Shown here: positions 1,971 to 24,514 of the stretch, in pieces
How the letters are laid out: the number at the start of each line of letters is the position of its first letter
How positions within the stretch are numbered: position 1 is the stretch's first letter
DNA from: Candidatus Zhuqueibacterota bacterium
GTDB lineage: Bacteria; Zhuqueibacterota; Zhuqueibacteria; JANLFK01; Oleimicrobiaceae
Reading direction: 5' to 3'
Assembly: GCA_024655945.1 (NCBI GenBank)
Contig: JANLFK010000001.1
Span: 588,116 to 652,115, forward strand
Length of the DNA stretch: 64,000 bases
Notes under the pieces: model-generated
Databases searched by the model: none
The model's input: the letters and a program-made list of their open reading frames with translations, nothing else
What the model was told of the DNA's origin: nothing
Program-made: the position numbers and the translations under genes

Positions 1971-2294
1971 TTTTCTCCTTGCACCTCCGCGCTCGCATTC
2001 GTCCCTCTCGCCGCTCTTGCGGCTCCACTTGCGACGCCCTAAATATACGTCCAGGTAGCTGCTGTGCGGAAGGGCCCTCCAAAGTCGGGAGAACCCCTGC
2101 CAAGAACAGCAAGCCGGTTCCCGGGAAGATTCTCCCGAAATGAAAACCCACGTACTGGCCTCTACGCTCTCTTTGTGTGCCCTGCCCGCCGGGACTCCCG
2201 TGCGCCGGGGAGGTGCCTATGCCCGCACAACTTTTCCCTTGCATTTCTCTGCGAAAGCTGTAACTTAGTCACCCAGGAGGTGCACGAGGAGAGT

Positions 2295-5061: not shown

Positions 5062-5157
5062 GGGAATGGATGGGTCCCTGGTGGGCCCCGCGGGCTTCAA
5101 ACCCGTTGTTCCGTGCTGAACAGTGCGGAAGGTGGGTTCGATTCCCACACATTCCCG
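5062..5157 (+). tRNA. selC: tRNA-Sec (selenocysteine tRNA), anticodon UCA
   Basis: 96 nt; 8-bp acceptor stem GGGAATGG/ACATTCCC (one G-A mismatch), 6-bp D stem GGGTCC/GGGCCC, anticodon loop CTTCAAA with UCA at 5097-5099, long variable arm 5109-5130, T arm GTGGG-TTCGATT-CCCAC, discriminator G; directly downstream of selB. Confidence 0.8.
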
Positions 5158-5166
5158 CAACAGGTC

Positions 5167-5415: not shown

Positions 5416-8400
5416 ATGGACAGCGAGAGCACGTGGGATGGCACACGCGGACCTTGGCGGCGAAGGCCGAGGCTTGTGGTACCTCCCCTTCTGGGGCTTG
5501 TGCACTTTGCGGCGCCACTGCTGTTCTTCTTAGCGGCTCCCACCGTCTTATCAGCAGATGAACTGCAGCAGTACGGCGTAGGTCGCCGCGACACTACCTT
5601 TTACCGCGCCGGGCGCACACTGCACACCGCCGTTTACTACCCTGCCACCAGTTCCGGCAGCGGGGCCCCCCTGAACACCTCCGGAGCACCCTATCCCCTG
5701 CTGGTCTTCGCCATTGGCAAACGCATGCAGGTGGAACACTATCTGAGCTACTACGAACACCTGGCAGCCAGTGGCTATGTGGTGATGGCGCCTCAGTTTC
5801 CGGACGTGGACAGTCCCAGCGCCTACACCTGGAACGAGGACCTGCGCGATTGCATCACCCAGGCGCTGAATGCGCGCACCGTGCCAGGCTCCGTGTTCTA
5901 TCAGGCGATAGATCCCGGCAAGATAGGGCTCTTCGGCCACTCCTTCGGCGGCGGCACTGTGGTCGGCGTGGCCGCCGACGACGGCCGTGTGCGGGTGACC
6001 TGCGCCATCGCGCCCAATAACCCGGGCAACTACTCCTTCAACAAGATGCCCAATGTGCACACGCCCATTCACATACTCGGCGCCGAGCTGGACGCCATCA
6101 ACTCGGTGGAGGCCATCGGGCGCCCGCTCTACGAGCGAGGTAACCCCGACAAGGCCTTATTGGTGGTCAAGGGCGGCAACCACATGCAGTTTTCCGACTA
6201 TACCGGTTTTGACAGCGTGGATACACCCGCGACCATCACCCGCGCCCAGCAGCTGGCCATCACCAAGGAGCACCTGGTCAATCTCTTTGACGCTTACCTG
6301 AAGGGAAGAAGTAGCGCCCGGACACAGCTTTACGGCACCGCGACCCTCACCAAAGACAGCGTCTTTCTCTGGTTTGAAACGCAGGCAGCCAGCGCCTCTC
6401 GCCTGGTGTACGTTTCCGGAAACGGACAGAGCGCTCCCCCTGGACAGCTCACCCTCTTGCCGGTAGTGTTCAAGGTGGTGGATGCCCAAGGGAATGCGCT
6501 GCCCCGTCACACGGTGCACTTTCAAATCACGGCTGGCGGCGGCAGCCTGGCCGGACAGACCTGGCGGGACTTGGAGACCGACGCCGATGGTCTGGTAAGC
6601 ATCTATCCTCGTCTCGGACCCTCTGAAGGGGTGGCCAACAACCTCATCGCGGTGAGCGCGTACAAGGGCACGGCCCATCTCACCGACTCTCCCCAGACTG
6701 TGGCGCTCTCGGGCACGACGCAACCGCTGCGCCGCATTGTCGTGCACAGCGATCCTGCCACGCTCACATACCAAGTGGACAACGTCGCTTACTCCAGCCC
6801 ACAGACATTTCTCTGGCCGACGGGCAGCAGCCACACCGTTTCGGCACCCTCGCCGCAGGGTGAGGCGGCCGGCACGCGATTCGTCTTCTCCTCCTGGAGC
6901 GACGGCGGCGCCCTGTCCCACGCCTACACGGTGCCCGCGCGCGACGACACCCTTGTCGTCACCTTCCGGACCCAGTACCTGCTCACGTTGGCTTCTGCCT
7001 ACGGCGCGCCCACCGGTGGTGGATGGTACGATGCCGGCAGTGTGGCTTCCTTCCGCGTGGATCGTCATGTCCCGGCCGGCCAGGCTAGACGCATGAGCTT
7101 GAGCGGCTGGGTGGGCACTGGCTCCGGTTCCTACTCGGGCCCGGACTCCGCCGCCACCGTGACCATGCACGGGCCTGTCACCGAAACGGCTATCTGGCAC
7201 ACCGAATTTTTCCTCACCACTGCTCAGAACCCGCCTGCAGGGGGCACGGTTTCGCCGGCACCGCCTGGCGCCTGGTACGACAGCAGCGCCACGGTGACGC
7301 TGGTGGCCACGCCTGCTCCCGGCTACGCTTGGGGCAGCTGGTCCGGCACCATCAATAGCACCGTCAACCCTCTATCGTTTGTCATGACAGGGCCCACGGC
7401 AGCCACGGCGAATTTTGTTCGCCTCGCCCTGCTCACCTTTCGCACCGAACCACCTGGCCTGACCGTTGTGGTGGACACGGTCAGCTATGTCATACCGCGC
7501 ACTTTCTCGTGGCTCCCCGGCTCGGTGCACACTGTGTCTGCCACCTCGCCACAGGCAGGGGGCGCTGGGGTGCAATACCTCTTTGACTCGTGGAGCGACG
7601 GCAATCCACGCACGCACAACCTCGTCACACCGGCCCGGGACGACACGCTGGTGGCGCGTTTCCGCACGCAGTTTTTCCTTGCCGTGCAGTCGGCGCATGG
7701 CTCTCCGCGCGGTCAAGGGTGGTATGACAGCGGCGCGCAGGCAGCTTTCAGCGTCACCACCCCCGATTCACAGGCTGGCACGCGCCACCTGTTCCAGCAG
7801 TGGACAGGCGACTTCACGGGCACCTCTCCGTCTGGAACCGTGCTCATGGACCGGCCAAAAACCGTCACCGCCCTGTGGAAGACCCAACATTTGCTCACCG
7901 TGCTCAGTCCGTACTGCACGGCTTCCGGCGCCGGCTGGCACGACGAGGGTAGCCAGGCGCTCTTCCGCGTGCAGCCATGCGTCGTGTACGACAGCGCAGG
8001 CACCAGGCGGGTTTTTGCCGGATGGACCGGAACCGGGCCAGGTTCCTACACCGGCCCAGACAGCACAGGGACGATCGTGGTACAAGGTCCCGTCACCGAG
8101 GTGGCAAGCTGGCAGACTCAGTACCAGTTGACCGTCTCTTCCCCCTACGGCAGTCCTGTCGGCGCAGGTTGGTACCCGGCCGGTGCAACGGCCCATTTCG
8201 CCGTGACCTCGCCTGAAGTGGAAGGCCTGAGGCGCCACGTCTTCCGCCGCTGGAGCGGCCACTTTTCCGGCACTCAGCCGGCCGGGACACTGGTCATGCG
8301 CGGCCCGCGGACGGTCACCGCCGAGTGGGGCGACCAGTTCTACCTCGCCATCACCGCGGAGCCGCCCGAGGGCGGGACGGTGACTCCCCAACCTCCTGGC

Positions 8401-10587
8401 GACTGGTTCGAGGCGGACTCGGTGCTGCTCGTGCACGCCTCCCCTTCACCGGGATTTGCCTTTGGCGGCTGGGACGGGGATCTCAAGGGAAACGCCAACC
8501 CTGCTTCGCTTCTCATCGACCGGCCCAAAGAGGTCAGCGCGCTCTTTGTGCCCATGGGCATGGTGCGCGTCACCTCTGAACCAGAAAACCTGCTGGTCAT
8601 CGTGGATGGCACTTCGTGTCTGACGCCGCACGACTTTGTCTGGCAACCCGGTTCGGTGCACACCGTGGAGGCCGTGTCCCCCCAGCAATATGACCGCCTC
8701 AGGCACACCTTCCAGTTCTGGAACGACGGCGGCGCCCGGACCCACTCTGTGACGGTGACCGGACCGGCCGTGTTCGTCGCCCACTACCAGAAGGAGTTTT
8801 TCGTCGCCACGGCGTGTTCGCCTCCTGAGGGAGGGAGCATTGTGCCGCCGCCACCAGGCGCATGGGTTGCCGAGGGCGAAGCTCTTCTGCTCCAGGCCAC
8901 GGCAAATGGCGCCCAGGGTTACCTTTTCGCCGGCTGGAGCGGCGACCTTGTCGGGACAGACAACCCTGACACTCTGCTCGTCACCGAGCCGAAACAGGTC
9001 ACGGCGAACTTTGTGAAGATCGGGCACACCACGATCGCCACCGTACCCGAAGGCCTCTCTATAATCGTGGACGGCACCCGATACACTGCTCCGCAGGAGT
9101 TCGTCTGGGCCCCGGGGTCCAGTCACCTCATCGCCGTGGAGTCGCCACAGGCTGTGGCACCTGGCCTCCGCTACGTCTTCGAGGAGTGGAGCGACCACGG
9201 CGCTCAGAGCCACACCATCACTGCTTCAAGCGGGGCGTTCTACACCGCTTCCTTCCGGGCGGAGTACGCCGTATCCATCGCCGTCGAGCCGCAAGGAGCT
9301 GGCACGGTGGAGCTGTCACCCCCGGGTGGCTGGTACCAGGAAGGCGCTTCCGTAACCCTGACGGCGAGGCCCGACTCGGCGCAAGGCTATGAGTTCGCCC
9401 GGTGGAGCGGCCATTTGACCGGCAGCGACAACCCTGCGACCTTGGCGGTGGACTGCCCAAAGGCGGTGGTGGCGCACTTTGTGGCATCGGACGTGCTGCC
9501 GCCGCTTCTTGTCTATGTCTATCCCCCTGCCGGTGCCACCTTCGTGCCCACGAACACGGCAATTGATTTAGCTATCAGCGACAATCCTGGCGGACGCGGG
9601 CTCGACGCCAAGTCGGTCGTCGTCAGCGTGAACGGCACCACGGTCGTCAACGGCGGCTCGGTCCTGCCAGGACAGCAGGCCACCTTGCGCGTGCGCGACG
9701 GGCTGGCGACGTTGCATTTCGTGCCGGCTGTGCCACTTGCTCCCCAAAGGCCGGTTGAGGTCCGCGTGCAAGCGGCTGACCTGGCCTCGCGCCCGCACAC
9801 CCTCGACACCACCTTCACCTTCACCCTCGGGCCCTATCCGGTGCTCGTTACGGCCATGGAGACGATTGGCCCGCAGGGCGGCTTTGTAACCGACCCCGTG
9901 CACAAGCTGCAGATCAGCGTTCCTGCCGACGCCCTCTCCGACTCGACCACGATGACAATCGCCGTGGCTCCCAGCCCGCCACCGCTTCCGGACTCGCTTC
10001 TGGCTGTGGGTCCCACGTTCTACCTTGGACCGGACGGCCTGAGCTTCCTTGACTCGGTGACGGTGGCGATGCCCTACACCCAGGCCGACCTGGTGGCAAC
10101 AGGCGCCAATGAGCCATCGGCCATGCCGGTGTACCGCTTCGACACTGCACGTTCCCGGTGGGAGAGACTCCGAGTCGGCCGCGTCTACCGCAATTTCCTC
10201 CTGGTGCCGATGCGCAGCTTCTGCTACCTCCTCTTCTGCGGCCCGCGCGGCACGCAGGTGGTCACGGAACAGGCTCCGCTGCCGGAGGTCTTTGCGCTGC
10301 GCGGGGGCTTCCCCAACCCGTTCAACAGTGGTACCACCTTCGTTCTGGACCTCCCTCATCCCTGCGCGGTGAAATTGACCTTCTACGACGCCTCTGGCAG
10401 GAGAGTGGCGAGTGTCGATGCGGGGGTGCTGCCGGCGGGCAGCCATCGCCTGCCTTGGGAGGCCCGCGATGCCCGGGGAGACGCCTTGCCCACCGGCATC
10501 TACCTTTGCCGCGTGGAGGCAGGGGCGCCCGGTGCGTCTCGTTCCCCAGCCTTCATCGCCACCCGCAAAATCGCCTTAGTGCGCTGA
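5416..10587 (+). CDS. giant surface protein: cutinase/PETase-like alpha/beta hydrolase + Ig-like domain + about 10 InlB-B-like repeats + T9SS type-A C-terminal sorting domain
   Basis: Single 1723-aa ORF; N-terminal hydrophobic signal-like segment; nucleophile elbow GHSFGGG (Ser codon 5941-5943), Asp in GAELDAIN, His in GGNHMQF; repeats of type GGTVSP.PPG.W...VTL.A.P.PGY.F..WSG.....NP..L.M..P..V.A.F; C-terminus GGFPNPFNSGTTFVLDL...GIYLCRV. Confidence 0.85.
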   Translation: MDSESTWDGTRGPWRRRPRLVVPPLLGLVHFAAPLLFFLAAPTVLSADELQQYGVGRRDTTFYRAGRTLHTAVYYPATSSGSGAPLNTSGAPYPLLVFAIGKRMQVEHYLSYYEHLAASGYVVMAPQFPDVDSPSAYTWNEDLRDCITQALNARTVPGSVFYQAIDPGKIGLFGHSFGGGTVVGVAADDGRVRVTCAIAPNNPGNYSFNKMPNVHTPIHILGAELDAINSVEAIGRPLYERGNPDKALLVVKGGNHMQFSDYTGFDSVDTPATITRAQQLAITKEHLVNLFDAYLKGRSSARTQLYGTATLTKDSVFLWFETQAASASRLVYVSGNGQSAPPGQLTLLPVVFKVVDAQGNALPRHTVHFQITAGGGSLAGQTWRDLETDADGLVSIYPRLGPSEGVANNLIAVSAYKGTAHLTDSPQTVALSGTTQPLRRIVVHSDPATLTYQVDNVAYSSPQTFLWPTGSSHTVSAPSPQGEAAGTRFVFSSWSDGGALSHAYTVPARDDTLVVTFRTQYLLTLASAYGAPTGGGWYDAGSVASFRVDRHVPAGQARRMSLSGWVGTGSGSYSGPDSAATVTMHGPVTETAIWHTEFFLTTAQNPPAGGTVSPAPPGAWYDSSATVTLVATPAPGYAWGSWSGTINSTVNPLSFVMTGPTAATANFVRLALLTFRTEPPGLTVVVDTVSYVIPRTFSWLPGSVHTVSATSPQAGGAGVQYLFDSWSDGNPRTHNLVTPARDDTLVARFRTQFFLAVQSAHGSPRGQGWYDSGAQAAFSVTTPDSQAGTRHLFQQWTGDFTGTSPSGTVLMDRPKTVTALWKTQHLLTVLSPYCTASGAGWHDEGSQALFRVQPCVVYDSAGTRRVFAGWTGTGPGSYTGPDSTGTIVVQGPVTEVASWQTQYQLTVSSPYGSPVGAGWYPAGATAHFAVTSPEVEGLRRHVFRRWSGHFSGTQPAGTLVMRGPRTVTAEWGDQFYLAITAEPPEGGTVTPQPPGDWFEADSVLLVHASPSPGFAFGGWDGDLKGNANPASLLIDRPKEVSALFVPMGMVRVTSEPENLLVIVDGTSCLTPHDFVWQPGSVHTVEAVSPQQYDRLRHTFQFWNDGGARTHSVTVTGPAVFVAHYQKEFFVATACSPPEGGSIVPPPPGAWVAEGEALLLQATANGAQGYLFAGWSGDLVGTDNPDTLLVTEPKQVTANFVKIGHTTIATVPEGLSIIVDGTRYTAPQEFVWAPGSSHLIAVESPQAVAPGLRYVFEEWSDHGAQSHTITASSGAFYTASFRAEYAVSIAVEPQGAGTVELSPPGGWYQEGASVTLTARPDSAQGYEFARWSGHLTGSDNPATLAVDCPKAVVAHFVASDVLPPLLVYVYPPAGATFVPTNTAIDLAISDNPGGRGLDAKSVVVSVNGTTVVNGGSVLPGQQATLRVRDGLATLHFVPAVPLAPQRPVEVRVQAADLASRPHTLDTTFTFTLGPYPVLVTAMETIGPQGGFVTDPVHKLQISVPADALSDSTTMTIAVAPSPPPLPDSLLAVGPTFYLGPDGLSFLDSVTVAMPYTQADLVATGANEPSAMPVYRFDTARSRWERLRVGRVYRNFLLVPMRSFCYLLFCGPRGTQVVTEQAPLPEVFALRGGFPNPFNSGTTFVLDLPHPCAVKLTFYDASGRRVASVDAGVLPAGSHRLPWEARDARGDALPTGIYLCRVEAGAPGASRSPAFIATRKIALVR
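6700..9500 (+). repeat. tandem protein-domain repeats (InlB B-repeat-like, with Ig-like spacers) inside the giant CDS
   Basis: Recurring about 70-aa modules with conserved W/G/P positions seen at least 10 times in the translation; the DNA copies are divergent. Confidence 0.6.
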
Positions 10588-11374
10588 GGGGCTGGTAGGC
10601 TTTCCCCATTCGCAAACTGCCGGGTGCCTCGCCGCCGATAACGGCTGACGAGCCTTGTGGCCGTTGTGAGGACCCTCAGTGGCCAAGAAGAACCACAGAT
10701 TGGTACAGATTCCCAAGGATGCGAGCCAACCCCCACTCATGAAGCCCTGAACTGTCGCCACCAGCGGTCCGTCAACCTCCAAGGATTCTAACCGCTGGTC
10801 AGCTCTGACGTTGTCATCGGCGCCTCTCACCGGAGTTCATACAACCACAGCTTGAGGCGGATCTCCACGGAGTGAGCTGAGACAAGATCGCGCAGGCGGC
10901 TGAGCCGTTCGGTCTGCCAATGACCGCGGACTTGGCCGCCGATGTCCGTTGCCGACATTTTGCTGGGCCATATCGCCACGTGCCCGCCGCTCATGACGGA
11001 CCACAGATAGGCACCGATGTTCACTGCCAGAAGACCAGACCGGCAAGAGTCGCTGATTTGCCGCCTCCGGTCGGCGGAGCCCGAGGCCTTGCCGTCGCAA
11101 GGACATGCCGATGAGCTTTCATCCGCTGTCAGCGGTCCAGGAGAACCCGCATTGTGGGAGACGTGGCCACGAGTCTTCGCCGAGCGGGAGAATGGGAGAT
11201 GGTCGCCTATGGCGATACCAGCCCTGGCCCTCGGGCGACGGCCCGCAAGTCCTACCTCCCGTATCAGTGCCCATCAATGATTCATGGTGAAAACCGGGTT
11301 GGCGCCGATCTTGACACGGAGTAATTGACCAAACCATCAGCATCTGGCCTCTCTCCCGCACGCGATTTTTTTTC

Positions 11375-11403
11375 TTGACTTTTCTTTGGAAATTGCTTAT
11401 TAC
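11375..11403 (+). promoter_or_regulatory. sigma-70-like promoter (TTGACT-17-TATTAC) with upstream T-run
   Basis: TTGACT at 11375-11380, 17-nt spacer, TATTAC at 11398-11403; followed by GGAGGAGGA and a GTG at 11432. Confidence 0.35.
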
Positions 11404-11671
11404 GTCAGCACGATAAGGGGAGGAGGACATTGTGAACAATCGGCGCGGGGGAAAACCGCAAAGGTTGGCCGTAGCGTGTGGGAAGCGAACCTGGGAAGTG
11501 GGGGCTGCGAAGATCGGGCCCCTCCGCCTGCTGCGGAGAGGCAATGTACCCCGCGCGTACTTGCTCCGCACTGAGCGGGTGCCGGACACTGCACGGCGCG
11601 CAGAGGTTGCATGTTTCACCGCCAAAGAAAACGACTCGTCGCCTCTTAGGCTCTAACAGGCGCCCTACTCC

Positions 11672-14125
11672 TTGCCGTATTTGTCCTGCTCTGGCCCTCT
11701 TCCGAGGCTCTGCAGGACCCCAAGCTCTTGCCCTACCGACTTGTTCCCGTCAAAGAACTGCCCCCCTCTCCTCACGACCCACGATGCTAACCACGACGGC
11801 TACGATGAGTGCTACCATGCGCGGAGTCTTGGTCCTGCCAAAGCGCTCACTGGGACCATCGAGCAGCGGGACCACAGGGGGAATAGCACAGAGCAGTACA
11901 ACTTCCCTGGTGCAGAGACAGCTTCTCTCAGCTTTGCGGACTTGGTGGGCGACGGCCGCGAGGAACTGGTTGTCTGGCTCCTCCGCAATGACACTGCCTT
12001 TGTGGATATCCGCACCACGGACGACCAGCGGGTGACCCGCTTCCCTGCGCTCACCACCGACGAGCATACCAACCTCGACAACATCGGACGCTGGGATTGC
12101 CCAGGGTTCCTAATCGACAGCCGCGACTTGGACGGGGACGGGCAGAATGACCTGATCTTTCTGGTGCGCACAGGACATGCCGGGTCTCCCCGCGGTCTTT
12201 TCGCTTTCCGGTTTCCAGACGGCGCCATCTTATGGCAGGAGAAGATGGTGGCGTTTCCCACCGCGTCACTCGCCACCGACTTGGAAGGGGACGGGCTGCC
12301 GGAGTATGTACTCGGCACGGACACCCCACAGAATCTAAGGGCGCCAATCAACGGCACGAAGGACGACGTGGCTTACCTAATGGTCTTTGACCATGACGGC
12401 AAAAGACTTTTTAGGAAAGAGCTCGCCGCCAAGGGTACGTTTGTCCGCACCTACCAGTTCCGCGAGCACGCCCAGGGAACGGCGCGGTGCGCAGTCTTGT
12501 GTAACCGGGTCCAGAAGGAAGCACAGGTCCTGCCCAGCGACCTCTTCGAGATGGAATTCCCGCAGCTGGCCCTGCGCCGTCTCTTGCCGCCGCCTCCCTT
12601 CTCCCGCTCGGCCTTCACCATTGCCGACCTCGATGAAGATGGTATCTCCGAAGCCTTGCTCGTTGCCGAAGACTCGAGGGCTCAACTTTACCGCTATAGT
12701 GTCGACAAACGGGTTTTTGTGCCCCAACTGGAACGCAAGGTGCCCGTTCAGGGCATAGATGGTGCAGCCGGCGTCGCGTGCTACGACCTCAACCTGGACG
12801 GTACTAAGGAAGTAGTGTGCGAGACGCTCAGAGGGTTTGTCGTGCTCGACGCGCGGCTAAGGCTCCTCGGAGCAGATGCTGGCCTGGGAGGCCCCTTACT
12901 CATAAGACGGGGGAAAGAGAAGCCCCTGCTGGTAGCCAATCGTAGAGACCGAGAGGGCTCCCTCCTTCTGCGGTTCGAACCAACCCCGCATCTCTGGTGG
13001 AACTGTGCGGCCATCGTGGCGCCCCCATTGGCCGTAGTGGTGGTGCTTGGTCTGCTCACCTGGCACTTCTTGCTTTCGCTCTCCGCCTACTGCAGCCTCC
13101 CTGTGCTTAGCCCTACAGCGAACTGGGTGCGGTTAGACCGCCACCTGCGCCCACGGGAGTGGAGCGGGGCGCTGGCCGAGCGGGTCAACCGGAGCACGAC
13201 CTCAATTTCCTTGGGCGACCTCCTGCCACCGAGCGCCGTGCAGTATGTGCAAGGTTGGCTGAGGGTACATGGTGCCCACAGTGCCGAGAGCGTTCAGGAG
13301 CTCGAACTGCCGGACCGAACGCACGGCCTCTTCATCTTCGAGTGGTACCCCCGGCCTGGGCTAACTCTCTCCGGTGGTGGCGTCCTTCTCTGGCGCCAGC
13401 TCCCCGTCTCCGCGCCGTTCCGCTCCGGGGAGTGGCTCAAACTGACCCGCGGCATGGTCCACGACCTGAACAATCCCCTTTCGGCGGCACTGACACTGCT
13501 GGGACGCCTGCGGCGGGAGTTGCAGCCCACAGTCCAAAATCAGGATCAATGCCAGGAGCACCTCGGAGAGATGGAGAACCAGGTCGTGCAAGCGCGCAAC
13601 ACGGCCCTTCGCTTACCCTCTTTGATGGACTTGGCATCGCACAAGCCACGCCCATGCGATGTGAACGCTCTGGTCGAAGAAGTTTGCAAGCAGTTCCGTG
13701 GCGAGGTGGGGCCGGAGGTACTCTTTCACCTCAACGCTGGCAAGGACCTCCCCCTGGTGCACGTGGCGCACGATGCCTTGCGCATGGCCCTGCGCAACGT
13801 CATCCAGAACGCGGTGGAAGCGGTGGGCAAACGTGGGAACATCTTCCTCACCACCTACCGTGAAAGCAGGCAGCGCCCGGAGAGCAGCCAGTGGGAAGAG
13901 TGGATTGTCATCGAGGTTCTCGACGACGGGCCGGGCATCCCGCCGGACCTTCTGGGCAGGCTGTTTGAGCCTGGTGTGACCACCAAGCCAGGAGGCTCAG
14001 GCGTCGGTCTCGCCATTACCAAGGAGATAATGCAGTCGCTGCAAGGCGACGTGCGCGTCGAGTGCCCAGGGGGGCACGGTACCTCGGTCACGTTGAGCAT
14101 TCCGGTGCGCCACCCTCCCGCCTAA
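11672..14125 (+). CDS. sensor histidine kinase with FG-GAP/VCBS-like beta-propeller sensor domain (N-terminus unresolved)
   Basis: Repeats FADLVGDGREEL, DLDGDGQNDL, DLEGDGLPEY, DLDEDGISE, DLNLDGTKE; hydrophobic segment AAIVAPPLAVVVVLGLLTWHFLL; H-box MVHDLNNPLSA; HATPase_c G-boxes DDGPGIP and GGSGVGL. The track start is the first TTG after a stop; a signal-like segment lies upstream in another frame. Confidence 0.8.
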   Translation: MPYLSCSGPLPRLCRTPSSCPTDLFPSKNCPPLLTTHDANHDGYDECYHARSLGPAKALTGTIEQRDHRGNSTEQYNFPGAETASLSFADLVGDGREELVVWLLRNDTAFVDIRTTDDQRVTRFPALTTDEHTNLDNIGRWDCPGFLIDSRDLDGDGQNDLIFLVRTGHAGSPRGLFAFRFPDGAILWQEKMVAFPTASLATDLEGDGLPEYVLGTDTPQNLRAPINGTKDDVAYLMVFDHDGKRLFRKELAAKGTFVRTYQFREHAQGTARCAVLCNRVQKEAQVLPSDLFEMEFPQLALRRLLPPPPFSRSAFTIADLDEDGISEALLVAEDSRAQLYRYSVDKRVFVPQLERKVPVQGIDGAAGVACYDLNLDGTKEVVCETLRGFVVLDARLRLLGADAGLGGPLLIRRGKEKPLLVANRRDREGSLLLRFEPTPHLWWNCAAIVAPPLAVVVVLGLLTWHFLLSLSAYCSLPVLSPTANWVRLDRHLRPREWSGALAERVNRSTTSISLGDLLPPSAVQYVQGWLRVHGAHSAESVQELELPDRTHGLFIFEWYPRPGLTLSGGGVLLWRQLPVSAPFRSGEWLKLTRGMVHDLNNPLSAALTLLGRLRRELQPTVQNQDQCQEHLGEMENQVVQARNTALRLPSLMDLASHKPRPCDVNALVEEVCKQFRGEVGPEVLFHLNAGKDLPLVHVAHDALRMALRNVIQNAVEAVGKRGNIFLTTYRESRQRPESSQWEEWIVIEVLDDGPGIPPDLLGRLFEPGVTTKPGGSGVGLAITKEIMQSLQGDVRVECPGGHGTSVTLSIPVRHPPA

Positions 14126-14189
14126 GGCACGCTGGCACGCCGGTTGCACTCGCTCCCAGGCCATCTCACAAAAATCGTGGCAGGAGCTC

Positions 14190-15563
14190 ATGGAAGAACC
14201 TATTCGTGTCCTGATCGCTGACGACAACCGCAACCTCCGCCTGCAGCTGCGCGATATCGCCGAGGAAGCGGGTTACCAGGTGGAAGAGGCAGCTGATGGC
14301 GAGGAGGCGATCGGCCGGCTGTCCGATGCCGATTACGACCTGCTGCTCCTCGACCTGCAGATGCCCAAGCTCTCCGGCCTGCAGGTGCTGGAACGTGCCA
14401 AAGGCCTGGCGCACCCCCCGGAAGTGTTGATCGTTACCGACTATGCCACCGTTGACGCTGCCGTAGAGGCGACGCGCTTAGGGGCATTCGACTTTATCGA
14501 GCGTGACGCCGTGGAACGGCGCCTGCCGGTGAGCATGCGCAATGCGCTGCAAAAGCGGCAGATAGAACCTGAGAACCAGCAGCTGCGCAGCCTTCGCGAG
14601 CCTGGCGAACTGCTGGGCACCAGCGCGGTGATGGCTGCCCTGCGCCAGCGCATTGCCCAGGTGGCCAAAAGCGACAGCACCGTGCTCATTCTCGGCGAGA
14701 GCGGCTCAGGCAAGGAGCTGGTGGCACGGGCCCTCCATCAACAGAGCCCGCGCGCCGCCAAGCCGTTTGTCGTGGTCAACTGCAGCGCCCTGAGCGACAC
14801 GCTGTTGGAGAGCGAGCTCTTCGGGCACGTGAAGGGGGCCTTCACGGGTGCCCACTCCGCCAAGAGGGGCATGTTCGAATGTGCCGATTCCGGCACTATC
14901 TTCCTCGATGAGATCGGCGACATGAGTCCGGCTGCCCAGGCAAAGGTCTTGCATGTGTTGGAGTACGGTGACGTGCACAAGGTGGGCTCCTTAGAGAGCA
15001 TTCGCGTGAACGTGCGCGTGCTGGCTGCAACTAATCGCCAGTTGGAACAGGATGTTGCCGAGGGTCGTTTTCGGCCCGACCTCTACCATAGGCTGAAGGT
15101 AGTCGTCTTGCACGTCCCGCCCTTGCGCGAGCACCCGGAGGATATCCCCCTCCTGGCCAACCACTTCTTGCGCACCTTTTGTGAGTTGAACCGCCGCCCA
15201 CCGGCGACTCTCGCCCCTGAAGCGTTGCAACTTCTCTTCCGCTACCATTGGCCCAACAATATCCGCGAGTTGCGCAACCTCATGGAGAGGGTGTGGATCC
15301 TGTGCAGCTCTGAGGTGGTAAACGCCTGGGAGTTAGAGCAGGTGTGGGAAAAAGAAGAGGGGCAGGTACCGGAGTCCCTGTTCCGTGGTCAGATTGTGCC
15401 GCTTGCGGAGGCCTGGCGCCAGTTTGAGCGGGCGTACATCAGGCGGGCCTTGGTCGCCTGCCGGGGCAACGTCAGCGAAACCGCGCGGCTTCTGCAGATC
15501 AACAGGAGTCATTTGCATGTGAAGATGAGGGAGTTGGGGGTGGGGGGCGGGCCAGCGTCGTAA
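14190..15563 (+). CDS. sigma-54-dependent response regulator (NtrC/Fis family: REC + AAA+ + HTH)
   Basis: REC domain LIADDN...LLLLDLQMP; Walker A GESGSGKE; GAFTGA-type sigma-54 interaction motif (GAFTGA); C-terminal HTH; ATG at 14190 with AGGAG upstream. Confidence 0.9.
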   Translation: MEEPIRVLIADDNRNLRLQLRDIAEEAGYQVEEAADGEEAIGRLSDADYDLLLLDLQMPKLSGLQVLERAKGLAHPPEVLIVTDYATVDAAVEATRLGAFDFIERDAVERRLPVSMRNALQKRQIEPENQQLRSLREPGELLGTSAVMAALRQRIAQVAKSDSTVLILGESGSGKELVARALHQQSPRAAKPFVVVNCSALSDTLLESELFGHVKGAFTGAHSAKRGMFECADSGTIFLDEIGDMSPAAQAKVLHVLEYGDVHKVGSLESIRVNVRVLAATNRQLEQDVAEGRFRPDLYHRLKVVVLHVPPLREHPEDIPLLANHFLRTFCELNRRPPATLAPEALQLLFRYHWPNNIRELRNLMERVWILCSSEVVNAWELEQVWEKEEGQVPESLFRGQIVPLAEAWRQFERAYIRRALVACRGNVSETARLLQINRSHLHVKMRELGVGGGPAS

Positions 15564-16797
15564 ATCGGGGTTGGTTTTGCGCTCTGCCTGCCGCAAAAGG
15601 ACAGGAACGTGAGGAAGTCTGTTGGAAAAGCCCAACACAGTGTGGGAAGAATCCTACAGTAGCGTGACGAACTTGCAGTAAGGTGTGGAAAGAGCCCTTT
15701 GCCTCCTTCTCGACTTCGAGGCCAGGAGGAACCAACGAGAGGGCACGAAGATTGCGTTATGCGATTATCGAGCGGCCTCGATGACCACTTCATCCCTTGT
15801 GAGAAGAGGATCCCAGGATCAGCAAAGGGGAACACTCAACGCTGCAGGAGTCGGCGGCGTTAAGCCAGCGGGTTCTCTTTTGGAGCGGGTTGAAGTGCAT
15901 TATTGGAGGGTCGGCGCCTGATGTTACCCCGAACGGGAAAGCGCTACATTGGGCGTTAGAGTTCGTGAACACTGTGTTCATCATGAGAGAAAGAGCCGCT
16001 CGCTGGCTAAGGTACTACGGTTAGCGGTGAAGCCGAGCTATGAACACGGGCGGGCTTTCTTTCCTCGCCCGATCGGACTCCCCGGGAAGGGGAGTGTTGT
16101 TGGACTGATGACAGTAGGGTTGCTGAGGCCACGGACTTTAGACACCCGCGATTGAGAGTAGGAGTACAGGCAAAGATACCTAACTTCGCAGCATGTTAAC
16201 CCTTGTTGGTGTCCTCTGAGATTCGGGTGGTGTGAAACATGGGGAGAGACACAGGCCCCGAAGGGCATCGGTACCGTACGGGAGCGCCTGCGCGACTGAT
16301 CAGTGAGGTCTTCAGATTCCTTAAACAAGTTGGAAGGAGTAGGAGTGAGACTCACGGCCATGCAGGCGCCGAAGCAGGCATGAGGACGTAACCCGGTTAC
16401 GTCGAGAGTTCCTCCCGGCGCTGCTCACTGGGTGGAACGGGGTGGGAAGTCAAGCCATTTAGAGGCCTCGCGACGATGGATGGACGGGCAGGTACGGCTT
16501 GCAGGTAGGTAGGGACCCACCAATGTGGAAAGAGCAGGAATGGGTGGCAACTCTATGTGGCCCCCCTGCGAGAGAAGGATGCTGTAGCTTCTTCACAGGG
16601 GACCGAGCAGTCAAGTTTGTCTATCAGAACGGGGGACATCTTGTGAAGGCTCCACCTCACGGGTGGAGTATACCCCAAAAGCATGGTGGGCCGCTATCCG
16701 CTGGAGCGGTGGATTGAAGCCTTTCGATGTCCTTACCCTGGAGTGATCCAGATGAGAAACGAGCGAAAATAGAATTGTCAGTCTCCATAACGCACTT
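15564..16797. other. ORF-free, purine-skewed 1.2-kb segment: candidate structured noncoding RNA or heavily decayed gene
   Basis: No ORF above about 110 aa in any frame; plus strand rich in G and A; several GNRA-like loops and clean hairpins (e.g. CTCCCC-GGGAA-GGGGAG at 16078-16094); 12-nt exact repeat TGTGGAAAGAGC at 15684-15695 and 16524-16535; composition differs from flanking genes. Confidence 0.25.
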
Positions 16798-18749
16798 GTG
16801 CGAATTGAGAGTACGAGAAGCCCCCGACGTGCCAAACCTTCGGGCTTGGCCTGGGATGGAAGTTACTTGTGGTTGTGCGACATCAGCGAGAACACCGTGT
16901 GGAAGCTTAGCCGAACCGGCCAGGTGGCGGCCAGAATGTTTGTTCCCGGTACTTATCACACTGGTCTGGAATGGGACGGCCATTCTGCGTGGCTGGTGGA
17001 CGGCGAGGCTGAACTCATCTACGAACTGGACGGCTCTGGCAACACTCGGAACTTCTATCTGCCGCCGGGGACCTTTCCCAGGGATATTGCCTGGGACGGC
17101 AGTGATCTTTGGATTGCAGATGCTGACAACGACAGAATCTACAAGTTGAGAGGTCCCATCATGGGGCCTGAGCCGAGGGCTTCGTTCACGGTAACCCCAA
17201 CGTCCGGTTTCCTGGAGACCCTTTTCCTGGTTGACGCTTCCAGTTCACAAGACCAAGTTACTCCCCTCGCGGACCTCGAGGTTCGGTGGGATTGGGAAAA
17301 CGATGGGGCGTACGACACCGAATACTCCAAGGTCAAGACTGCAAACCATCAGTACGCCTCACCGGGAACCAAGACAATTAGGCTTGAGGTCAAGGATACG
17401 GACGGGTATACCGGCACGACAACAAGAAGCGTCTCAGTAAGCGCGAGGGCCCCTCAGGCTTTCAGCCTAGTTTCTCCGCGATCAGGTGATACCGTTAGAA
17501 CGTACCTGCCCTCATTCAAGTGGCGGACCGCGCGAGACGCTGACCCAGGAGATACGGTGCGCTATTTTGTTCAGTATTCGAAAAGCTCCTATTTCTCCAT
17601 CTTCGATACACTCGCAGCAGGCACCGACACCCCTGCTGCCGTACGTGATTCTTTGCAGCAATTACAGAGGTACTATTGGCGGGTGGAAGCGGTGGATCGC
17701 TGGGGAGCAAAGACCCTGAGCTCTCAAAGTTGGAATTTCCTGGTCGCAGACCTCACGCCCCCCTCTTTCACAATCGGTCTCCTGCAGAATCCCATAATCA
17801 CAGAGGATCTCGATCTGTACGCCATCCCCAACGAGACACTGGATCAGCGCGGGGTTCAGTGTACCGCCAACGGGATCCCTGTTCCTATGTCGGAGCTCGA
17901 CGCTGCGCGTCGAATCTATGTTGGTGATTACCAGCTCTCGGGGGAGCGGAAGACTGGTGGTCATCATGAGAGGCAAAGATGCGATATGGGGAAATGAAGG
18001 TGCCGACAGCCTGTCCATCTCGGTGCAGCTAGTCAAAACAGTACAGGGGGGGGACGATCGCTAGTCTCGATGGGGCCTTGCATGCACAGTTCCCCGCTGG
18101 TTGCCTTCCTTACGACGCTTACGTCTTGGTTCTACAAGCGAACCAGGAACCAGGACGGAGGGAAGGCCTCTGTAGAAGGACAATGGAAAGTGACACAGTC
18201 ATCGCCATTGGGACAAGCTACGGAATTGAGCCCGCAGGACTCCGGTTATCCGACTCTGTGCTGTTGGAGGCCAGTTACTCGGAGAGGGCCTTGGCAGACC
18301 TAGATGAGGAGAGACTAGAGCTTGCGATCAGAGAAAGTGACGGCTGGAGATCTCTCGGCGGTGTAGTGGACAAGAAGACTGACAGAGTGACCTTGCTGGT
18401 CGACCAGCTGGGAGAATACCGTCTGCAGTGGAATCAGAAACGTCGGACGTCAGGGAGTTTTCCTTCGCACTTGGTCCTTTTGCCAAACTACCCCAATCCG
18501 TTCAATCCGACCACTACCCTACATTATGGACTGCCTGAGCGATTTTCGGGCTGGGTGGAGCTGGGTATCTACGACGCCGCTGGGCGCGAAGTGTGTTGCC
18601 TGGTGGATGAGCCTCAGAACCCCGGGTATTATTCTGTCGTATGGGACGGGAGGGATAGCTCTGGTCGGCAGGTGCCAAGCGGAGTGTACTGTTGCCGTCT
18701 GCGGGCAAACAGGCTTTCCATTGCAAGAAAGATGATCTTCCTACGCTAA
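16798..18749 (+). pseudogene. T9SS-type surface protein (WDG beta-propeller blades + PKD domain + type-A C-terminal sorting domain), frame-disrupted and lacking an N-terminal signal
   Basis: Frame 1 16798-17997 (GLAWDGSYLWLCD, GLEWDGHSAWLVD, DIAWDGSDLWIAD; PKD-like WDWENDGAYD), switch to frame 2 near 17940-17960, then to frame 0 at the G8 run 18046-18053; frame 0 continues to the sorting domain LLPNYPNPFNPTTTLHY...GVYCCRL ending at 18749. Confidence 0.55.
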
Positions 18750-18778
18750 GTTGCTCAACACAAATGGAGGAATAGCCA

Positions 18779-19459
18779 ATGACAGCCTTCATGCTCAAAC
18801 AGTCGCCTGGACGTGCGGTGTTGATCTGCCTTGTCTGCGTCGTGGCCCTCGCTACCTGCAGCAAAGAGACACCCACGGCACCAAAGAAGGGTCCCGTTAC
18901 ATGGATTGCTGAGGGCTGGAGATACTTCGAGGCGAAGGACTTCGCCGAGGCAGTTAATTGCTTCAGCACTGCACTCAACATGAATCCAAGCGACAGCATC
19001 GCTGCAATCGCGCATTGCGGGTTGGGCTGGAGTCAGGCAAGGCAGCGCGCATACGAGGTAGCTCACAACAATTTCACTTTCTCGGTCCAGAAGGACTCCA
19101 CCACGCCCGGCCCATATGTTGCCGACTCTTACGCCGGCAGGGCTGCAACCTTCTTTCGAATGAACCTCTACAGTGAGGCAATTTCTGACGTGAAGAAGGC
19201 CCTGAGCAGTACCGGCACCTATGAATTCGTTCACGACCGGACAGTGAGATTCACTGACCTTCACTTCTTGATGGCCGAAGCCTACTACCACACTCGTCAG
19301 TACCAAATGGCACAGGAAAAAGTAGACTTCCTTCGTGCCTTGTTTGCTCTTCCTCCGATCAACTGGACTGTAGTCCCCTATATGGTTGATGGTTTGGGGT
19401 ATGGAACTTACCAGGAAGCTCTTCTCAAAGCGATCGAGGGACTTCGGAGCAGAGTGTAG
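18779..19459 (+). CDS. TPR-like repeat lipoprotein
   Basis: ATG at 18779 with GGAGGA upstream; signal peptide with lipobox-like LATCS; helical repeat content; lower GC than flanking genes; TAG stop. Confidence 0.7.
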   Translation: MTAFMLKQSPGRAVLICLVCVVALATCSKETPTAPKKGPVTWIAEGWRYFEAKDFAEAVNCFSTALNMNPSDSIAAIAHCGLGWSQARQRAYEVAHNNFTFSVQKDSTTPGPYVADSYAGRAATFFRMNLYSEAISDVKKALSSTGTYEFVHDRTVRFTDLHFLMAEAYYHTRQYQMAQEKVDFLRALFALPPINWTVVPYMVDGLGYGTYQEALLKAIEGLRSRV

Positions 19460-19843
19460 GTTGTCCTTCCGTAAGTCCAGAAGGGTAAACCCAAACAAGA
19501 CAAGGGGGGAAGGTGAAACGGGACTGGAGGACACAATCGCGGCGTCCGCGGTCACAGTGTGTCCGCGACAAACGGTTCCCCCGCACCTTTTCGATCAACC
19601 TTTGTCGAGCGTCTCGAGTGCGAGATTTGGTCGAGGGAACTCCGTCGGGAAAGGGACCACGTCTGATCGTGACTCAAAGGCCTTGGAATTGAGGCGAATC
19701 CGACCACGAACTAGGTCAACGATCGGAGATGGAGGAGCCCACAAGTGAGAGAACACCAAACTGCGCGTTGTCCGCGGGAATCGGTTTCCACGGTGGGCGC
19801 CCAGAGGACGAAGTCGTCACAACGTAACGTAAAGAGGCAAGCG

Positions 19844-21383
19844 ATGAGAGAACCCAGTGGTCCATTCCGTCTTTTGATCATTTTGCTGGTATTTGTTGGC
19901 ATTGGCGCCCACGCCGGAGAAATCCGCCCCGTGAGCCCGGCCACCGTCCTGGGGCAGGTGGGGGTCGAGTTCGACGTGTATGTGCGTGTGGATCAGGTAA
20001 GCAATCTCTTCGGGGTCAGTTTCGTTTTGACCTTGGACAACGGCTATCTGGAGGCGATTTCCGAAAACCCCGAGTCCTTCATGGGCAGTGACGTGGTATT
20101 TTTGGGCCAGCACAATAATGCCGCCGGCACAGTGGCCATCGGGATTTCCCGCAAAGCTGGGCAGGGAGGCGTCAGCGGCACAGGCAATGTCGCACGGGTG
20201 CGAGAGTTGTGCAAGGGGCCACGCAGGACAGAGTCCTCCGGTTCGGGCTCGCCTCCGTGGAAGCCATCGACCCCTTGGGCGCGTCGATTGTGCTCGCTCC
20301 AGGTGAAGCCACGACTACGCTGTCCAGGTTGGTCACGGTGTGGCCGGGCGATGCTGATGATAACGGCACTGTGAACATCTTCGACATTAACCCGATCGTT
20401 GCCAATCACTGGGGCCGGACGGGGCCGCAGCGGCCCAATGCCTCTGTAAACTGGACGGGCCAGGTATGCCCACCATGGACACCGCCTGACGCAACCTACC
20501 CGACACTAACGGCGACGGCCTGGTGAGCATTTTCGACATTAATGCCGTACCGGTCAACTTCGGCAAGACTCACCCCGGAACCGCCGGGGCCCCACTCCCG
20601 ACACCGGTGGAACCCCAGGTCGTTGCGCTTGGCAAGGAAAGCGGGGTCACCTCACCGCCCATCGCGGCAAAGGGCCCGCAGCAGGTAGACAAGAACCAGG
20701 AATTCTGGGTAGACATCGAGGTTGGAGCCTTAGGCAATCCCGTCACCAACCTCAAGGTGGTCTCTTTCGAACTGACCTACACGAACACTGCCATAGTTGA
20801 CTACCTCAGTTACGAGGTGGGACCTTTCTTGACGGGCGCGATAGCAACCGTGATTCCGGATGACCCCAACGGGAAGGTAAGCGCGTCGGTCTATCGAACC
20901 ACTGGCAGCAACTCCGGCTACGGGGTAGTCTTGCGGCTGAAGTTTCGCACAAGCGCACAGGCCGCAGCGGGGCAGACGGTAAGCTTTGCCTTCGCCCAGG
21001 TGCTAGCCAACAGGGAGGACGGTAGCGTTCAGCCCTTGTCGCCCATTGGTCAGGTGGTCACCATTCAACCTGGCAGCGGCATACGCGCTGACGACTTCAC
21101 GCCCACAGAGTTCGAGCTGGTGCAGAACTACCCCAACCCCTTCAATCCTGGGACGGTCATAGAGTACCGTCTCCCGCAGGCCAGCAGGGTGACGCTGCAA
21201 GTGTACAACTTGGCTGGAGTAAAGGTGGCCTCGCTGCGGGACGGGATGGAGAGTGCGGGTCGTCATTCGGTGGTCTGGGATGGCCGCGACGAAATGGGCA
21301 GGCCTGTTGCAGCGGGGGTATACATGTGCAGGCTGGTGGCCGGAACCTACGACAAGACCATCAGAATGCTGCTGCTCAGGTAG
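19844..21383 (+). pseudogene. cohesin-like / dockerin-like / cohesin-like protein with T9SS type-A sorting domain, carrying two frame disruptions
   Basis: ATG at 19844 (AAAGAGG upstream), signal MREPSGPFRLLIILLVFVGIGAHA; cohesin-like VSFVLTLDNGYLEAI; dockerin repeats GDADDNGTVNIFDINPIV (frame 1) and DTNGDGLVSIFDINAVPV (frame 0); second cohesin-like VVSFELTYTNTAIVDYL; C-terminus LVQNYPNPFNPGTVIEY...GVYMCRL. Reading requires frame 2 -> 1 -> 0. Confidence 0.55.
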
Positions 21384-24421: not shown

Positions 24422-24478
24422 GACCTCATTCCTCCTCTGCCATGCGCGAGCACTCCACCACGCGGCGGGCGGCGCCAA

Positions 24479-24514
24479 CAAAAAAACCCTGGCCTCCTCA
24501 AACAGACCAGGGTT
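24479..24514 (-). terminator. intrinsic terminator / riboswitch expression-platform hairpin
   Basis: Minus strand AACCCTGG-14 nt loop-CCAGGGTT followed by TTTTTTT; sits between the riboswitch aptamer and the RBS. Confidence 0.5.

What the first reader, a model, noticed from the sequence alone, without database searches (positions are those of the whole stretch)
11375..11760. Sensor kinase N-terminus is scrambled: signal peptide in another frame, in-frame TAG, and a C6 frameshift
The FG-GAP-propeller histidine kinase body (frame 2) has no signal peptide or TM segment before its periplasmic-type domain. A textbook signal sequence MFHRQRKRLVAS-[TAG]-ALTGALLLAVFVLLWPSSEA is encoded in frame 1 from the ATG at 11611 (GAGGT RBS), interrupted by TAG at 11647-11649, and joins the kinase frame only through a shift at the C6 run 11751-11756. 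A strong promoter plus RBS also drives a 74-codon ORF from the GTG at 11432. Either the kinase is a pseudogene, or the sequence has errors, or there is a leader-peptide arrangement.
Basis: seen in the sequence. Interest (0 to 1): 0.45.

Follow-up and report, generated by a model that had tools for sequence, protein, structure and literature searches.

The report
Broken sensor kinase gene (recent pseudogene)
A membrane sensor kinase gene has lost its start region to one premature stop codon and one extra base, so it is most likely a recently dead gene: an ordinary finding, though correctly spotted.

Summary
A 52-codon N-terminus runs in frame 1 from ATG 11611. It is colinear with residues 1-52 of two intact orthologues of 836 and 838 aa (54% identity, no gaps, E 2e-17).

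It is cut by TAG 11647-11649, where the orthologues have Tyr (TAT, TAC). It joins the kinase body in frame 2 only if one base is removed from the C6 run.

TAG is a normal stop codon here, ending 5 of 38 genes. Neither lesion is conserved in the orthologues, and no upstream ORF is conserved. This argues against recoding and against a leader-peptide arrangement.

Of 41 gene models, about 38 of them checked against Pfam, only one other is visibly broken: an alpha/beta hydrolase (27536-26461, minus strand). It also carries two lesions, TAG in place of Gln and a missing base at a C5 run. Four random errors would fall in two or fewer genes with p of about 0.01.

NCBI protein records from at least one further assembly (761,593-bp contig) reproduce the C6 frame and both hydrolase lesions.

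Best reading: a real, recent pseudogene (about 0.7). The neighbouring sigma-54 response regulator is intact and has its own conserved sigma-54 promoter. Consensus sequence error remains possible (about 0.2), and only the reads can settle it. Interest is low.

The parts
11366..11403 (+). Promoter-like element of the kinase gene: T8 run (11366-11373), TTGACT (11375-11380), 17-nt spacer, TATTAC (11398-11403). It implies a 5' UTR of about 200 nt.
   Evidence: T7-8-CTTGACTTT is invariant, and a TAnnnT box sits at the same spacing, in window, L003 and L004. The consensus scan does not call it. Function is inferred from conservation only.
11432..11656 (+). 74-codon ORF in the 5' UTR (GTG start, GGAGG-rich stretch upstream), overlapping the kinase ATG. 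Judged a chance ORF.
   Evidence: No Pfam hit and no coding signal. The UTR aligns at only about 41-47% with indels. ORFs in the UTRs of L003 and L004 share no peptide and are not all in the same relative frame. There are 71 ORFs of 50 aa or more in the surrounding 8 kb.
11611..11766 (+). Ancestral 5' end of the kinase CDS in frame 1: Met1, basic n-region, hydrophobic core (residues 14-28), then WPSSEA and a conserved DPKLLPYRLVP linker, up to the C-run.
   Evidence: 54% identity, no gaps, E 2e-17 to residues 1-52 of P0003. Colinear alignments at protein and DNA level. Hydrophobicity.
11647..11649 (+). Lesion 1: in-frame TAG at codon 13, a premature stop.
   Evidence: Orthologues have Tyr here: TAT in L003 and TAC in L004. 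TAG is a genuine stop in this genome, ending 5 of 38 genes.
11761..11766 (+). Lesion 2: C6 run carrying one extra base relative to both orthologues, which shifts the frame from 1 to 2.
   Evidence: There is a one-column gap in both orthologues in the DNA alignment. Removing one C gives ELPPLLTTHDANHDG, against ELPPLLATCDADHDG in P0003. The NCBI protein P0194 starts MFPSKNCPPLLTTHD, which is frame 2 read through the same C6.
11768..13006 (+). Periplasmic-type sensor domain in frame 2, beta-rich with DxDGDG (FG-GAP/VCBS-like) repeats.
   Evidence: Pfam FG-GAP_3, E 2.3e-15. There are 1112 relatives at E<=1e-3, mostly proteins of about 800-860 aa with the domain starting at residue 50-60. The AlphaFold model of orthologue P0002 is all-beta over residues 42-458.
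13007..13081 (+). Second transmembrane segment (AAIVAPPLAVVVVLGLLTWHFLLSL).
   Evidence: Read from the sequence. A helix spans residues 462-496 in the model of P0002.
13430..14125 (+). Cytoplasmic DHp and catalytic ATPase domains. The H-box MVHDLNNPLSA has its His at 13460-13462. Stop codon TAA at 14123-14125.
   Evidence: HATPase_c at 76.5 bits. HisKA is weak, 21.6 bits against a cut-off of 26.9. Top Foldseek matches of the orthologue model are DHp-CA kinases such as ZraS, CckA and HK853.
14133..14148 (+). Sigma-54 promoter consensus TGGCACGCCGGTTGCA between the kinase stop and the response-regulator ATG.
   Evidence: Exact consensus match. Conserved in L003 (identical) and L004 (TGGCACACGGGTTGCA). 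Function is inferred.
14190..15563 (+). Intact NtrC-type sigma-54-dependent response regulator, the presumed partner of the kinase.
   Evidence: Pfam Response_reg, Sigma54_activat and HTH_8. About 91-92% identical to the L003 orthologue with dN/dS 0.10.

Best explanation
The locus is a two-component system. It consists of a membrane sensor histidine kinase (N-terminal signal or anchor, about 410-aa FG-GAP-type beta-rich periplasmic domain, second TM segment, DHp-CA core) and an NtrC-type sigma-54 activator.

In this lineage the kinase gene has been knocked out recently by two mutations in its first 156 nt:
- a Tyr codon (TAY) changed to TAG at codon 13;
- a 1-nt insertion in a poly-C run at codons 51-52.

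As the sequence stands, ribosomes starting at ATG 11611 make a 12-residue peptide and stop. No in-frame restart can supply the hydrophobic leader. The sensor domain therefore cannot reach the periplasm, and the kinase is non-functional.

The rest of the ORF is still open because the inactivation is young. The response regulator has its own conserved sigma-54 promoter and remains intact, so it is now an orphan.

Shown: the lesions, their derived state relative to orthologues, the clean state of the other genes in the window, and their recurrence in other assemblies' proteins. Inferred: that they exist in the cells rather than only in the consensus, the functional consequence, and the timing.
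For: 1. The repaired protein is colinear from Met1 with intact orthologues of 838 and 836 aa. The DNA alignment shows TAG against TAT and TAC, and one extra base at the C-run.
2. An N-terminal basic and hydrophobic leader of about 50 aa is the family norm.
3. TAG is a normal stop here, ending 5 of 38 genes, and no coding signal continues beyond those stops.
4. The assembly is otherwise clean. About 36 other genes, including ORFs of 1723, 981, 932, 831 and 798 aa, have full-length Pfam domain coverage and no frame breaks, despite 18 C6 and 48 C5 runs in the window.
5. The only other broken gene, the hydrolase at 27536-26461, also has two lesions. Four random lesions would hit two or fewer of 41 genes with p of about 0.01. 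This is the clustering expected of pseudogenes.
6. NCBI proteins from at least one further assembly reproduce three of the four lesions. P0194 is the frame-2 reading through C6. P0076 runs from the hydrolase frameshift to its TAG. They come from two accession series (MCR, MDH), and the contig is 761,593 bp against JGI's 631,779 bp.
7. No intact copy of this allele turned up in the word-filtered search of 5.8 billion proteins.
8. Kinase dN/dS against the orthologues is about 0.14-0.2, and no further stops or indels occur in 2.36 kb. The gene was therefore under purifying selection until recently.
9. The lesion types are typical of real mutations: C-to-T giving CAG to TAG in the hydrolase, and indels in homopolymers in opposite directions (+1 in the kinase, -1 in the hydrolase).
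Against: - No reads were available, so the lesions cannot be shown to exist in the DNA.
- The assemblies that share them may derive from the same read set, in which case a platform-systematic error would recur in all.
- The kinase TAG itself is not directly confirmed in the NCBI records.
- Both frameshifts lie in C-runs, the classic site of sequencing indels.
- Both kinase lesions fall in the first 156 of 2515 nt. The post-hoc p is about 0.004 if both are placed uniformly, or about 0.09 for the second to lie within 120 nt of the first. This is mildly odd for random decay.
- A relative-rate test on the hydrolase shows only a non-significant excess of window-specific changes: 10-11 against 3-5, p 0.06-0.3.
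Confidence: 0.7

Rival explanations
1. Consensus or sequencing error. The gene is intact in the organism, and the TAG and the extra C are artefacts of the assembly, as are the two hydrolase lesions.
For: Both frameshifts sit in poly-C runs, the typical site of homopolymer miscalls. The source is a metagenome contig of 632 kb, a size that might come from long-read data; this is my inference, as the platform is unknown. The rest of the ORF is perfectly open with dN/dS of about 0.2. The assemblies sharing the lesions could rest on the same reads.
Against: - Of the other gene models, about 36 of which were checked, none shows a break, although the window holds 66 C5/C6 runs and 40 G5/G6 runs.
- Four independent errors falling in two genes has p of about 0.01.
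- Two of the four lesions are base substitutions creating TAG, which is not a homopolymer error type.
- The indels go in opposite directions.
- Differently assembled contigs (631,779 and 761,593 bp) carry the same lesions.
Confidence: 0.2
2. Tolerated or programmed recoding. The kinase would be made at a low, possibly regulated, level by UAG read-through at codon 13 plus a +1 slip of tRNA-Pro on CCC-CCC-U. The hydrolase would likewise be rescued by UAG read-through plus a -1 slip.
For: CCC-C allows perfect re-pairing of tRNA-Pro after a +1 slip; this rests on established knowledge of +1 frameshifting at Pro codons, not on a test here. The residues that orthologues carry at the two TAGs, Tyr and Gln, are among those known to be inserted by near-cognate read-through of UAG. 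Two genes in 64 kb show the same pair of lesion types.
Against: - Neither the TAG nor the C-run is present in either orthologue of the kinase, nor in the hydrolase orthologues.
- TAG ends 5 of 38 genes.
- There is no stop or rare codon at the shift site and no SD-like stimulator as in prfB.
- The two genes need shifts in opposite directions and different amino acids at UAG.
- No suppressor tRNA lies in the window; the only tRNA is tRNA-Sec.
- The combined yield of two inefficient events would be negligible.
Confidence: 0.03
3. Leader-peptide or uORF arrangement. The 12-codon ORF from ATG 11611, or the 74-codon ORF from GTG 11432, would be a regulatory leader, and the kinase would start downstream (TTG 11672, TTG 11741 or GTG 11945) as annotated by JGI and NCBI.
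For: The GTG 11432 ORF has a GGAGG-rich stretch upstream and overlaps the kinase ATG. All three loci have a UTR of about 200 nt behind a conserved promoter-like box. Public annotations call downstream starts of 726 aa and 794 aa.
Against: - The '12-codon ORF' is simply the first 12 codons of the orthologues' kinase.
- No uORF peptide or frame is conserved.
- Any downstream start yields a protein with no leader in front of a domain that carries one in every relative inspected.
- The downstream starts lack a recognisable SD sequence.
Confidence: 0.02

Closest known systems
Bacterial pseudogenes made by a nonsense mutation plus a homopolymer frameshift (ordinary gene decay)
   Same: A conserved sense codon is turned into a stop. 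A 1-nt indel sits in a short homopolymer. There are several lesions per dead gene. Intact orthologues exist in close relatives, and the neighbouring genes are intact.
   Different: The gene is very young. The remaining 2.36 kb of ORF is undamaged, and both lesions are at the extreme 5' end. Reality at read level is unverified.
NtrC-family two-component systems with a periplasmic-sensing kinase, such as ZraS/ZraR
   Same: A kinase with a periplasmic domain bracketed by two hydrophobic segments, a DHp-CA core and an adjacent sigma-54-dependent activator. Crystal structures of the ZraS cytoplasmic domain are among the best fold matches.
   Different: The sensor domain is a roughly 410-aa FG-GAP/VCBS-type beta-rich domain, not the small helical ZraS sensor. 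The regulator has its own conserved sigma-54 promoter in the 64-nt spacer. The signal and the regulon are unknown.
prfB-type programmed +1 frameshifting
   Same: A +1 shift would be needed to join the two frames, and the shift site allows tRNA re-pairing.
   Different: There is no in-frame stop at the site and no upstream SD stimulator. The site is absent from orthologues, and an additional premature TAG lies upstream.
Phase-variable (contingency) genes with homopolymeric tracts
   Same: The frame is set by the length of a poly-C tract near the 5' end of a gene for an envelope protein.
   Different: The tract has only 6 bases. It is absent in orthologues (CTGCCGCCC and CTGCCACAA). A separate nonsense codon would keep the gene off whatever the tract length.

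Membership tests
Transmembrane class-I sensor histidine kinase | Catalytic ATP-binding domain (HATPase_c) | tested here: met
   PF02518 at 76.5 bits against a cut-off of 26.4, residues 701-813 of the frame-2 ORF. The fold of the orthologue model matches CA domains.
Transmembrane class-I sensor histidine kinase | DHp domain with a phospho-acceptor His (H-box) | tested here: inconclusive
   HisKA scores only 21.6 bits, below the cut-off of 26.9. However, MVHDxxNPLSA is invariant in all three orthologues, and helices 607-677 of the model match DHp.
Transmembrane class-I sensor histidine kinase | One continuous ORF encoding N-terminal signal or TM1, extracytoplasmic domain, TM2 and kinase core | tested here: not met
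   In the window the leader is in frame 1, interrupted by TAG, and the body is in frame 2. The feature is met in orthologues P0002 and P0003.
Transmembrane class-I sensor histidine kinase | Adjacent cognate response regulator | tested here: met
   REC, Sigma54_activat and HTH_8 protein at 14190-15563. Synteny is conserved in L003.
Pseudogene (disrupted copy of a functional gene) | Intact, colinear orthologues exist | tested here: met
   P0002 (838 aa) and P0003 (836 aa) cover 100% of the repaired query.
Pseudogene (disrupted copy of a functional gene) | Premature stop or frameshift at positions that are sense and in frame in orthologues | tested here: met
   TAG against TAT and TAC; one extra base at the C-run.
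Pseudogene (disrupted copy of a functional gene) | Lesions are in the DNA of the organism, not artefacts | tested here: inconclusive
   Three of the four lesions in the window recur in NCBI proteins from at least one other assembly. Lesions cluster by gene with p of about 0.01. The independence of the read sets is unknown, and reads cannot be inspected with these tools.
Pseudogene (disrupted copy of a functional gene) | Relaxed selection after inactivation | tested here: inconclusive
   Kinase dN/dS is about 0.2 over the whole divergence and dS is saturated. The hydrolase relative-rate test gives 10-11 against 3-5 changes, p 0.06-0.3. Both are consistent with very recent loss but do not demonstrate it.
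Programmed recoding (stop read-through, Pyl, or +1 frameshift) | Recoding site conserved in orthologues | tested here: not met
   Orthologues have Tyr codons and no C-run or indel.
Programmed recoding (stop read-through, Pyl, or +1 frameshift) | TAG avoided as a terminator, or dedicated decoding machinery present | tested here: not met
   TAG ends 5 of 38 genes. The only tRNA in the window is tRNA-Sec. The rest of the genome could not be searched.
Leader peptide / regulatory uORF | uORF conserved in presence, frame or peptide among orthologous loci | tested here: not met
   No shared peptide or frame. The UTR is only 41-47% identical.
Phase-variable homopolymer switch | Long tract (usually 7 or more) retained across relatives, with no other inactivating lesion | tested here: not met
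   The tract is C6, is absent in orthologues, and an extra TAG lies upstream.

The most novel reading that the evidence does not exclude
The organism would tolerate or exploit translational recoding. Two unrelated genes within 64 kb each need UAG read-through (restoring Tyr in one and Gln in the other) plus a ribosomal slip on a run of proline codons to give their conserved full-length products. This could mean both genes are still expressed at a low, condition-dependent level rather than being dead.
Probability: 0.03. Interest if true: 0.7.

Novelty: new member of a known kind. Interest (0 to 1): 0.15.

Why it matters
It matters mainly for annotation. Public records give this gene as a 726-aa 'anti-sigma regulatory factor' (JGI) and a 794-aa 'ATP-binding protein' (NCBI). 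Both have arbitrary internal starts. It should instead be flagged as a disrupted 837-aa sensor kinase.

If the lesions are real, this KSB1/Calditrichota-like lineage has just lost the sensor of a sigma-54 two-component system. That system sits among genes for large secreted surface proteins, and its regulator has been kept. This is a small, datable example of regulatory rewiring.

It opens no general question.

Tried and rejected
- **TAG reassignment.** Rejected. TAG ends 5 of 38 genes, and no coding signal continues past those stops.
- **Other frameshifts in the window.** A codon-score frame scan and Pfam coverage of about 38 genes were used. The overlapping minus-strand ORFs at 382-2216 looked like a frameshift but are two complete methyltransferase genes. 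The only other hit is the hydrolase.
- **Finding the source organism or near-identical contigs.**
  - The genome-contig scan returned one distant relative.
- **Fetching the DNA of the NCBI contig.** Not possible. P0194, P0076 and the 1723-aa ORF are not on record as gene products. The regulator look-up showed only the JGI copy. The kinase TAG is therefore not directly confirmed in a second assembly.
- **Provenance and platform.** No paper cites the IMG identifiers. The Zhuqueibacterota paper does not mention a sequencing platform.
- **RNA elements in the 5' UTR.** No Rfam family matches it.
- **Fold search.** The full-length model was dominated by the kinase core, so it did not test the propeller fold of the sensor domain.
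Full report
**What is in the sequence**

- ATG 11611, with GAGGT at 11603-11607, opens frame 1. It encodes MFHRQRKRLVAS, then TAG at 11647-11649, then ALTGALLLAVFVLLWPSSEALQDPKLLPYRLVPVKELPP.
- The long kinase ORF is in frame 2. It runs stop-to-stop over 11657-14125, and its first possible start is TTG 11672. It has no hydrophobic segment ahead of its beta-rich domain.
- The two frames can be joined only around the poly-C run.
- Pfam finds FG-GAP_3, a weak HisKA and a strong HATPase_c in the frame-2 ORF. The next gene (14190-15563) is a REC, sigma-54-activator and HTH_8 regulator.

**Orthologues settle the reading**

A search with the repaired protein found three close matches in 5.8 billion proteins.
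- The source's own truncated gene call: P0001, 726 aa, JGI metagenome 3300038743, contig Ga0417229_000003, 631,779 bp.
- Two intact orthologues, P0002 (838 aa, Calditrichota MAG GCA_014359355.1) and P0003 (836 aa). Each is 57-58% identical and covers 100% of the repaired 837-aa query.

The protein alignment is colinear from Met1, with no gap at the repair site. The DNA alignment shows two things.
- The window's TAG lies opposite TAT and TAC, both Tyr codons.
- The window has exactly one extra base at the C-run. Deleting one C gives ELPPLLTTHDANHDG, against ELPPLLATCDADHDG in P0003.

The frame-1 piece alone matches residues 1-52 of P0003 at E 2e-17.

A filter-free HMMER search with the sensor domain (11768-13006) found 1112 relatives. 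Most are proteins of about 800-860 aa in which the domain starts at residue 50-60. All eight that I inspected begin with a basic and hydrophobic, or lipoprotein-type, leader.

An AlphaFold model of the intact orthologue has mean pLDDT 61, so I use it for architecture only.
- helix at residues 2-26
- all-beta at 42-458
- helix at 462-496
- DHp-CA core at 607-832

The core matches ZraS, CckA and HK853 structures. The upstream segment is the true, conserved N-terminus.

**Recoding and leader-peptide readings**

TAG is an ordinary terminator in this genome. It ends 5 of 38 genes, and nothing coding follows those stops. Neither lesion is present in the orthologues. The shift site has no stop codon and no SD stimulator.

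The 74-codon ORF from GTG 11432 has no Pfam hit and no coding signal. The 5' UTRs of the three loci are only about 41-47% identical. They hold unrelated ORFs, and not all are in the same relative frame. Such ORFs are common at 62% G+C: 71 ORFs of 50 aa or more lie in the surrounding 8 kb.

What is conserved in the UTR region is a promoter-like T7-8-CTTGACTTT, a 17-nt spacer and a TAnnnT box, about 230 nt upstream of the ATG. The consensus scan does not score it.

**Real mutation or sequence error?**

I checked the rest of the window for broken genes. About 36 other genes are uninterrupted with full-length domain matches, including ORFs of 1723, 981, 932, 831 and 798 aa. The window nevertheless holds 18 C6 and 48 C5 runs.

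One other gene is broken, a proline-iminopeptidase-like alpha/beta hydrolase on the minus strand (27536-26461). It too has two lesions.
- A missing base at a C5 run (27260-27264). Orthologues read YPYLGPPPGL or YLAPPPGL there.
- An in-frame TAG at 26605-26607, where orthologues have Gln (GGMDIQPEAAS). The catalytic-His motif continues in frame after it.

Four independent random lesions would fall in two or fewer of 41 genes with p of about 0.01. Clustering by gene is what pseudogenes show.

The lesion types are also heterogeneous.
- one transition (CAG to TAG)
- one transversion (TAY to TAG)
- one +1 indel
- one -1 indel

This does not look like one systematic error mode.

Protein records from other assemblies reproduce three of the four lesions. 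NCBI MAG proteins MCR4437893.1 and MDH7559082.1 (P0194, 794 aa, 'candidate division KSB1 bacterium', contig 761,593 bp) start MFPSKNCPPLLTTHD. That is frame 2 read through the same C6. MCR4437902.1 and MDH7559091.1 (P0076, 214 aa) run from just after the hydrolase frameshift to its TAG.

No intact copy of this allele turned up in the protein search.

Some caveats remain.
- I could not obtain the NCBI contig's DNA.
- I could not see any reads.
- I could not establish that the assemblies rest on different read sets.
- The JGI locus is identical to the window over 13.4 kb.

**Timing**

Against L003 the kinase has dN/dS of about 0.2. It has no further stop or indel in 2.36 kb. It was therefore under purifying selection for nearly all of its history, and the knock-out is recent.

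Both lesions lie in the first 156 nt. This is mildly unusual: post hoc, p is about 0.09 for the second lesion to fall within 120 nt of the first. I attach no mechanism to it.

**Consequence (inferred)**

Translation from ATG 11611 stops after 12 residues. No in-frame start codon follows that could supply the hydrophobic leader. The downstream starts used by the public annotations lack an SD sequence, and they would leave a 410-aa extracytoplasmic-type domain without an export signal.

The regulator is probably unaffected transcriptionally. An exact sigma-54 promoter consensus (TGGCACGCCGGTTGCA, 14133-14148) sits in the 64-nt spacer and is conserved in both orthologous loci. The regulator itself is about 91-92% identical to its orthologue, with dN/dS 0.10.

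**Verdict**

This is a correctly observed, ordinary feature: a sensor-kinase gene disrupted by a nonsense codon and a homopolymer frameshift. The probabilities I assign are:
- real, recent pseudogene: about 0.7
- consensus error: about 0.2
- recoding or leader-peptide readings: about 0.05 together

Interest is low. The practical value is in correcting the annotation.

Noticed in passing
window 26461-27536 (minus strand): A second broken gene, a proline-iminopeptidase-like alpha/beta hydrolase. It has a missing base at the C5 run 27260-27264 and an in-frame TAG at 26605-26607, where orthologues have Gln. Orthologue P0192 is 92% identical and intact (358 aa). NCBI and JGI call only fragments of 214 and 178 aa.
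   Followed up: yes
window 10590-14190 compared with L003 5105-8580: The kinase gene and its upstream intergenic region form a divergent island between well-conserved flanks. Kinase: 57.5% aa identity, synonymous difference pS 0.67 (dS about 1.6, saturated). Flanks: dS 0.49 (upstream gene, 85% aa) and 0.56 (regulator, 91% aa). Identity jumps from about 75% to 88% at the regulator start. This suggests allele replacement or a separate history for the sensor gene.
   Followed up: partly
window 14133-14148: An exact sigma-54 promoter consensus (TGGCAC-N5-TTGCA) lies in the 64-nt spacer between kinase and regulator and is conserved in L003 and L004. The sigma-54 activator gene therefore probably has its own, possibly autoregulated, promoter.
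   Followed up: partly
window 2064-4208 and 5062-5158: Selenocysteine machinery: SelB elongation factor (Pfam SelB winged-helix and beta-barrel domains) and a tRNA-Sec gene (ARAGORN and Rfam RF01852). In-frame TGA codons in this genome may therefore be Sec.
   Followed up: no
window 40505-40942 (minus strand): A 145-codon open frame with gene-like GC3 (0.75) follows directly, in the same frame, the TGA that ends the asparaginase gene (40943-41899). It has no Pfam hit. It may be a separate small gene or, given the Sec machinery, a read-through candidate.
   Followed up: partly
window 24563-24764 (minus strand): A cobalamin riboswitch (RF00174, 99 bits) lies upstream of the TonB-dependent receptor gene 21683-24481.
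   Followed up: no
window 15564-16935: A 1.37-kb stretch downstream of the regulator has no called gene, no Pfam hit in any ORF, no Rfam hit and no similarity to L003. Its content is unexplained.
   Followed up: partly
window 5416-10587 and 16936-21383: The two-component system sits among genes for large secreted or surface proteins. These include a 1723-aa PETase-like hydrolase with InlB B-repeats and a FlgD_ig-type C-terminal domain, plus PKD, cohesin, TPR and further FlgD_ig-tailed proteins. The latter block has lower GC3 than the rest of the window. They are possible targets of the regulator.
   Followed up: no
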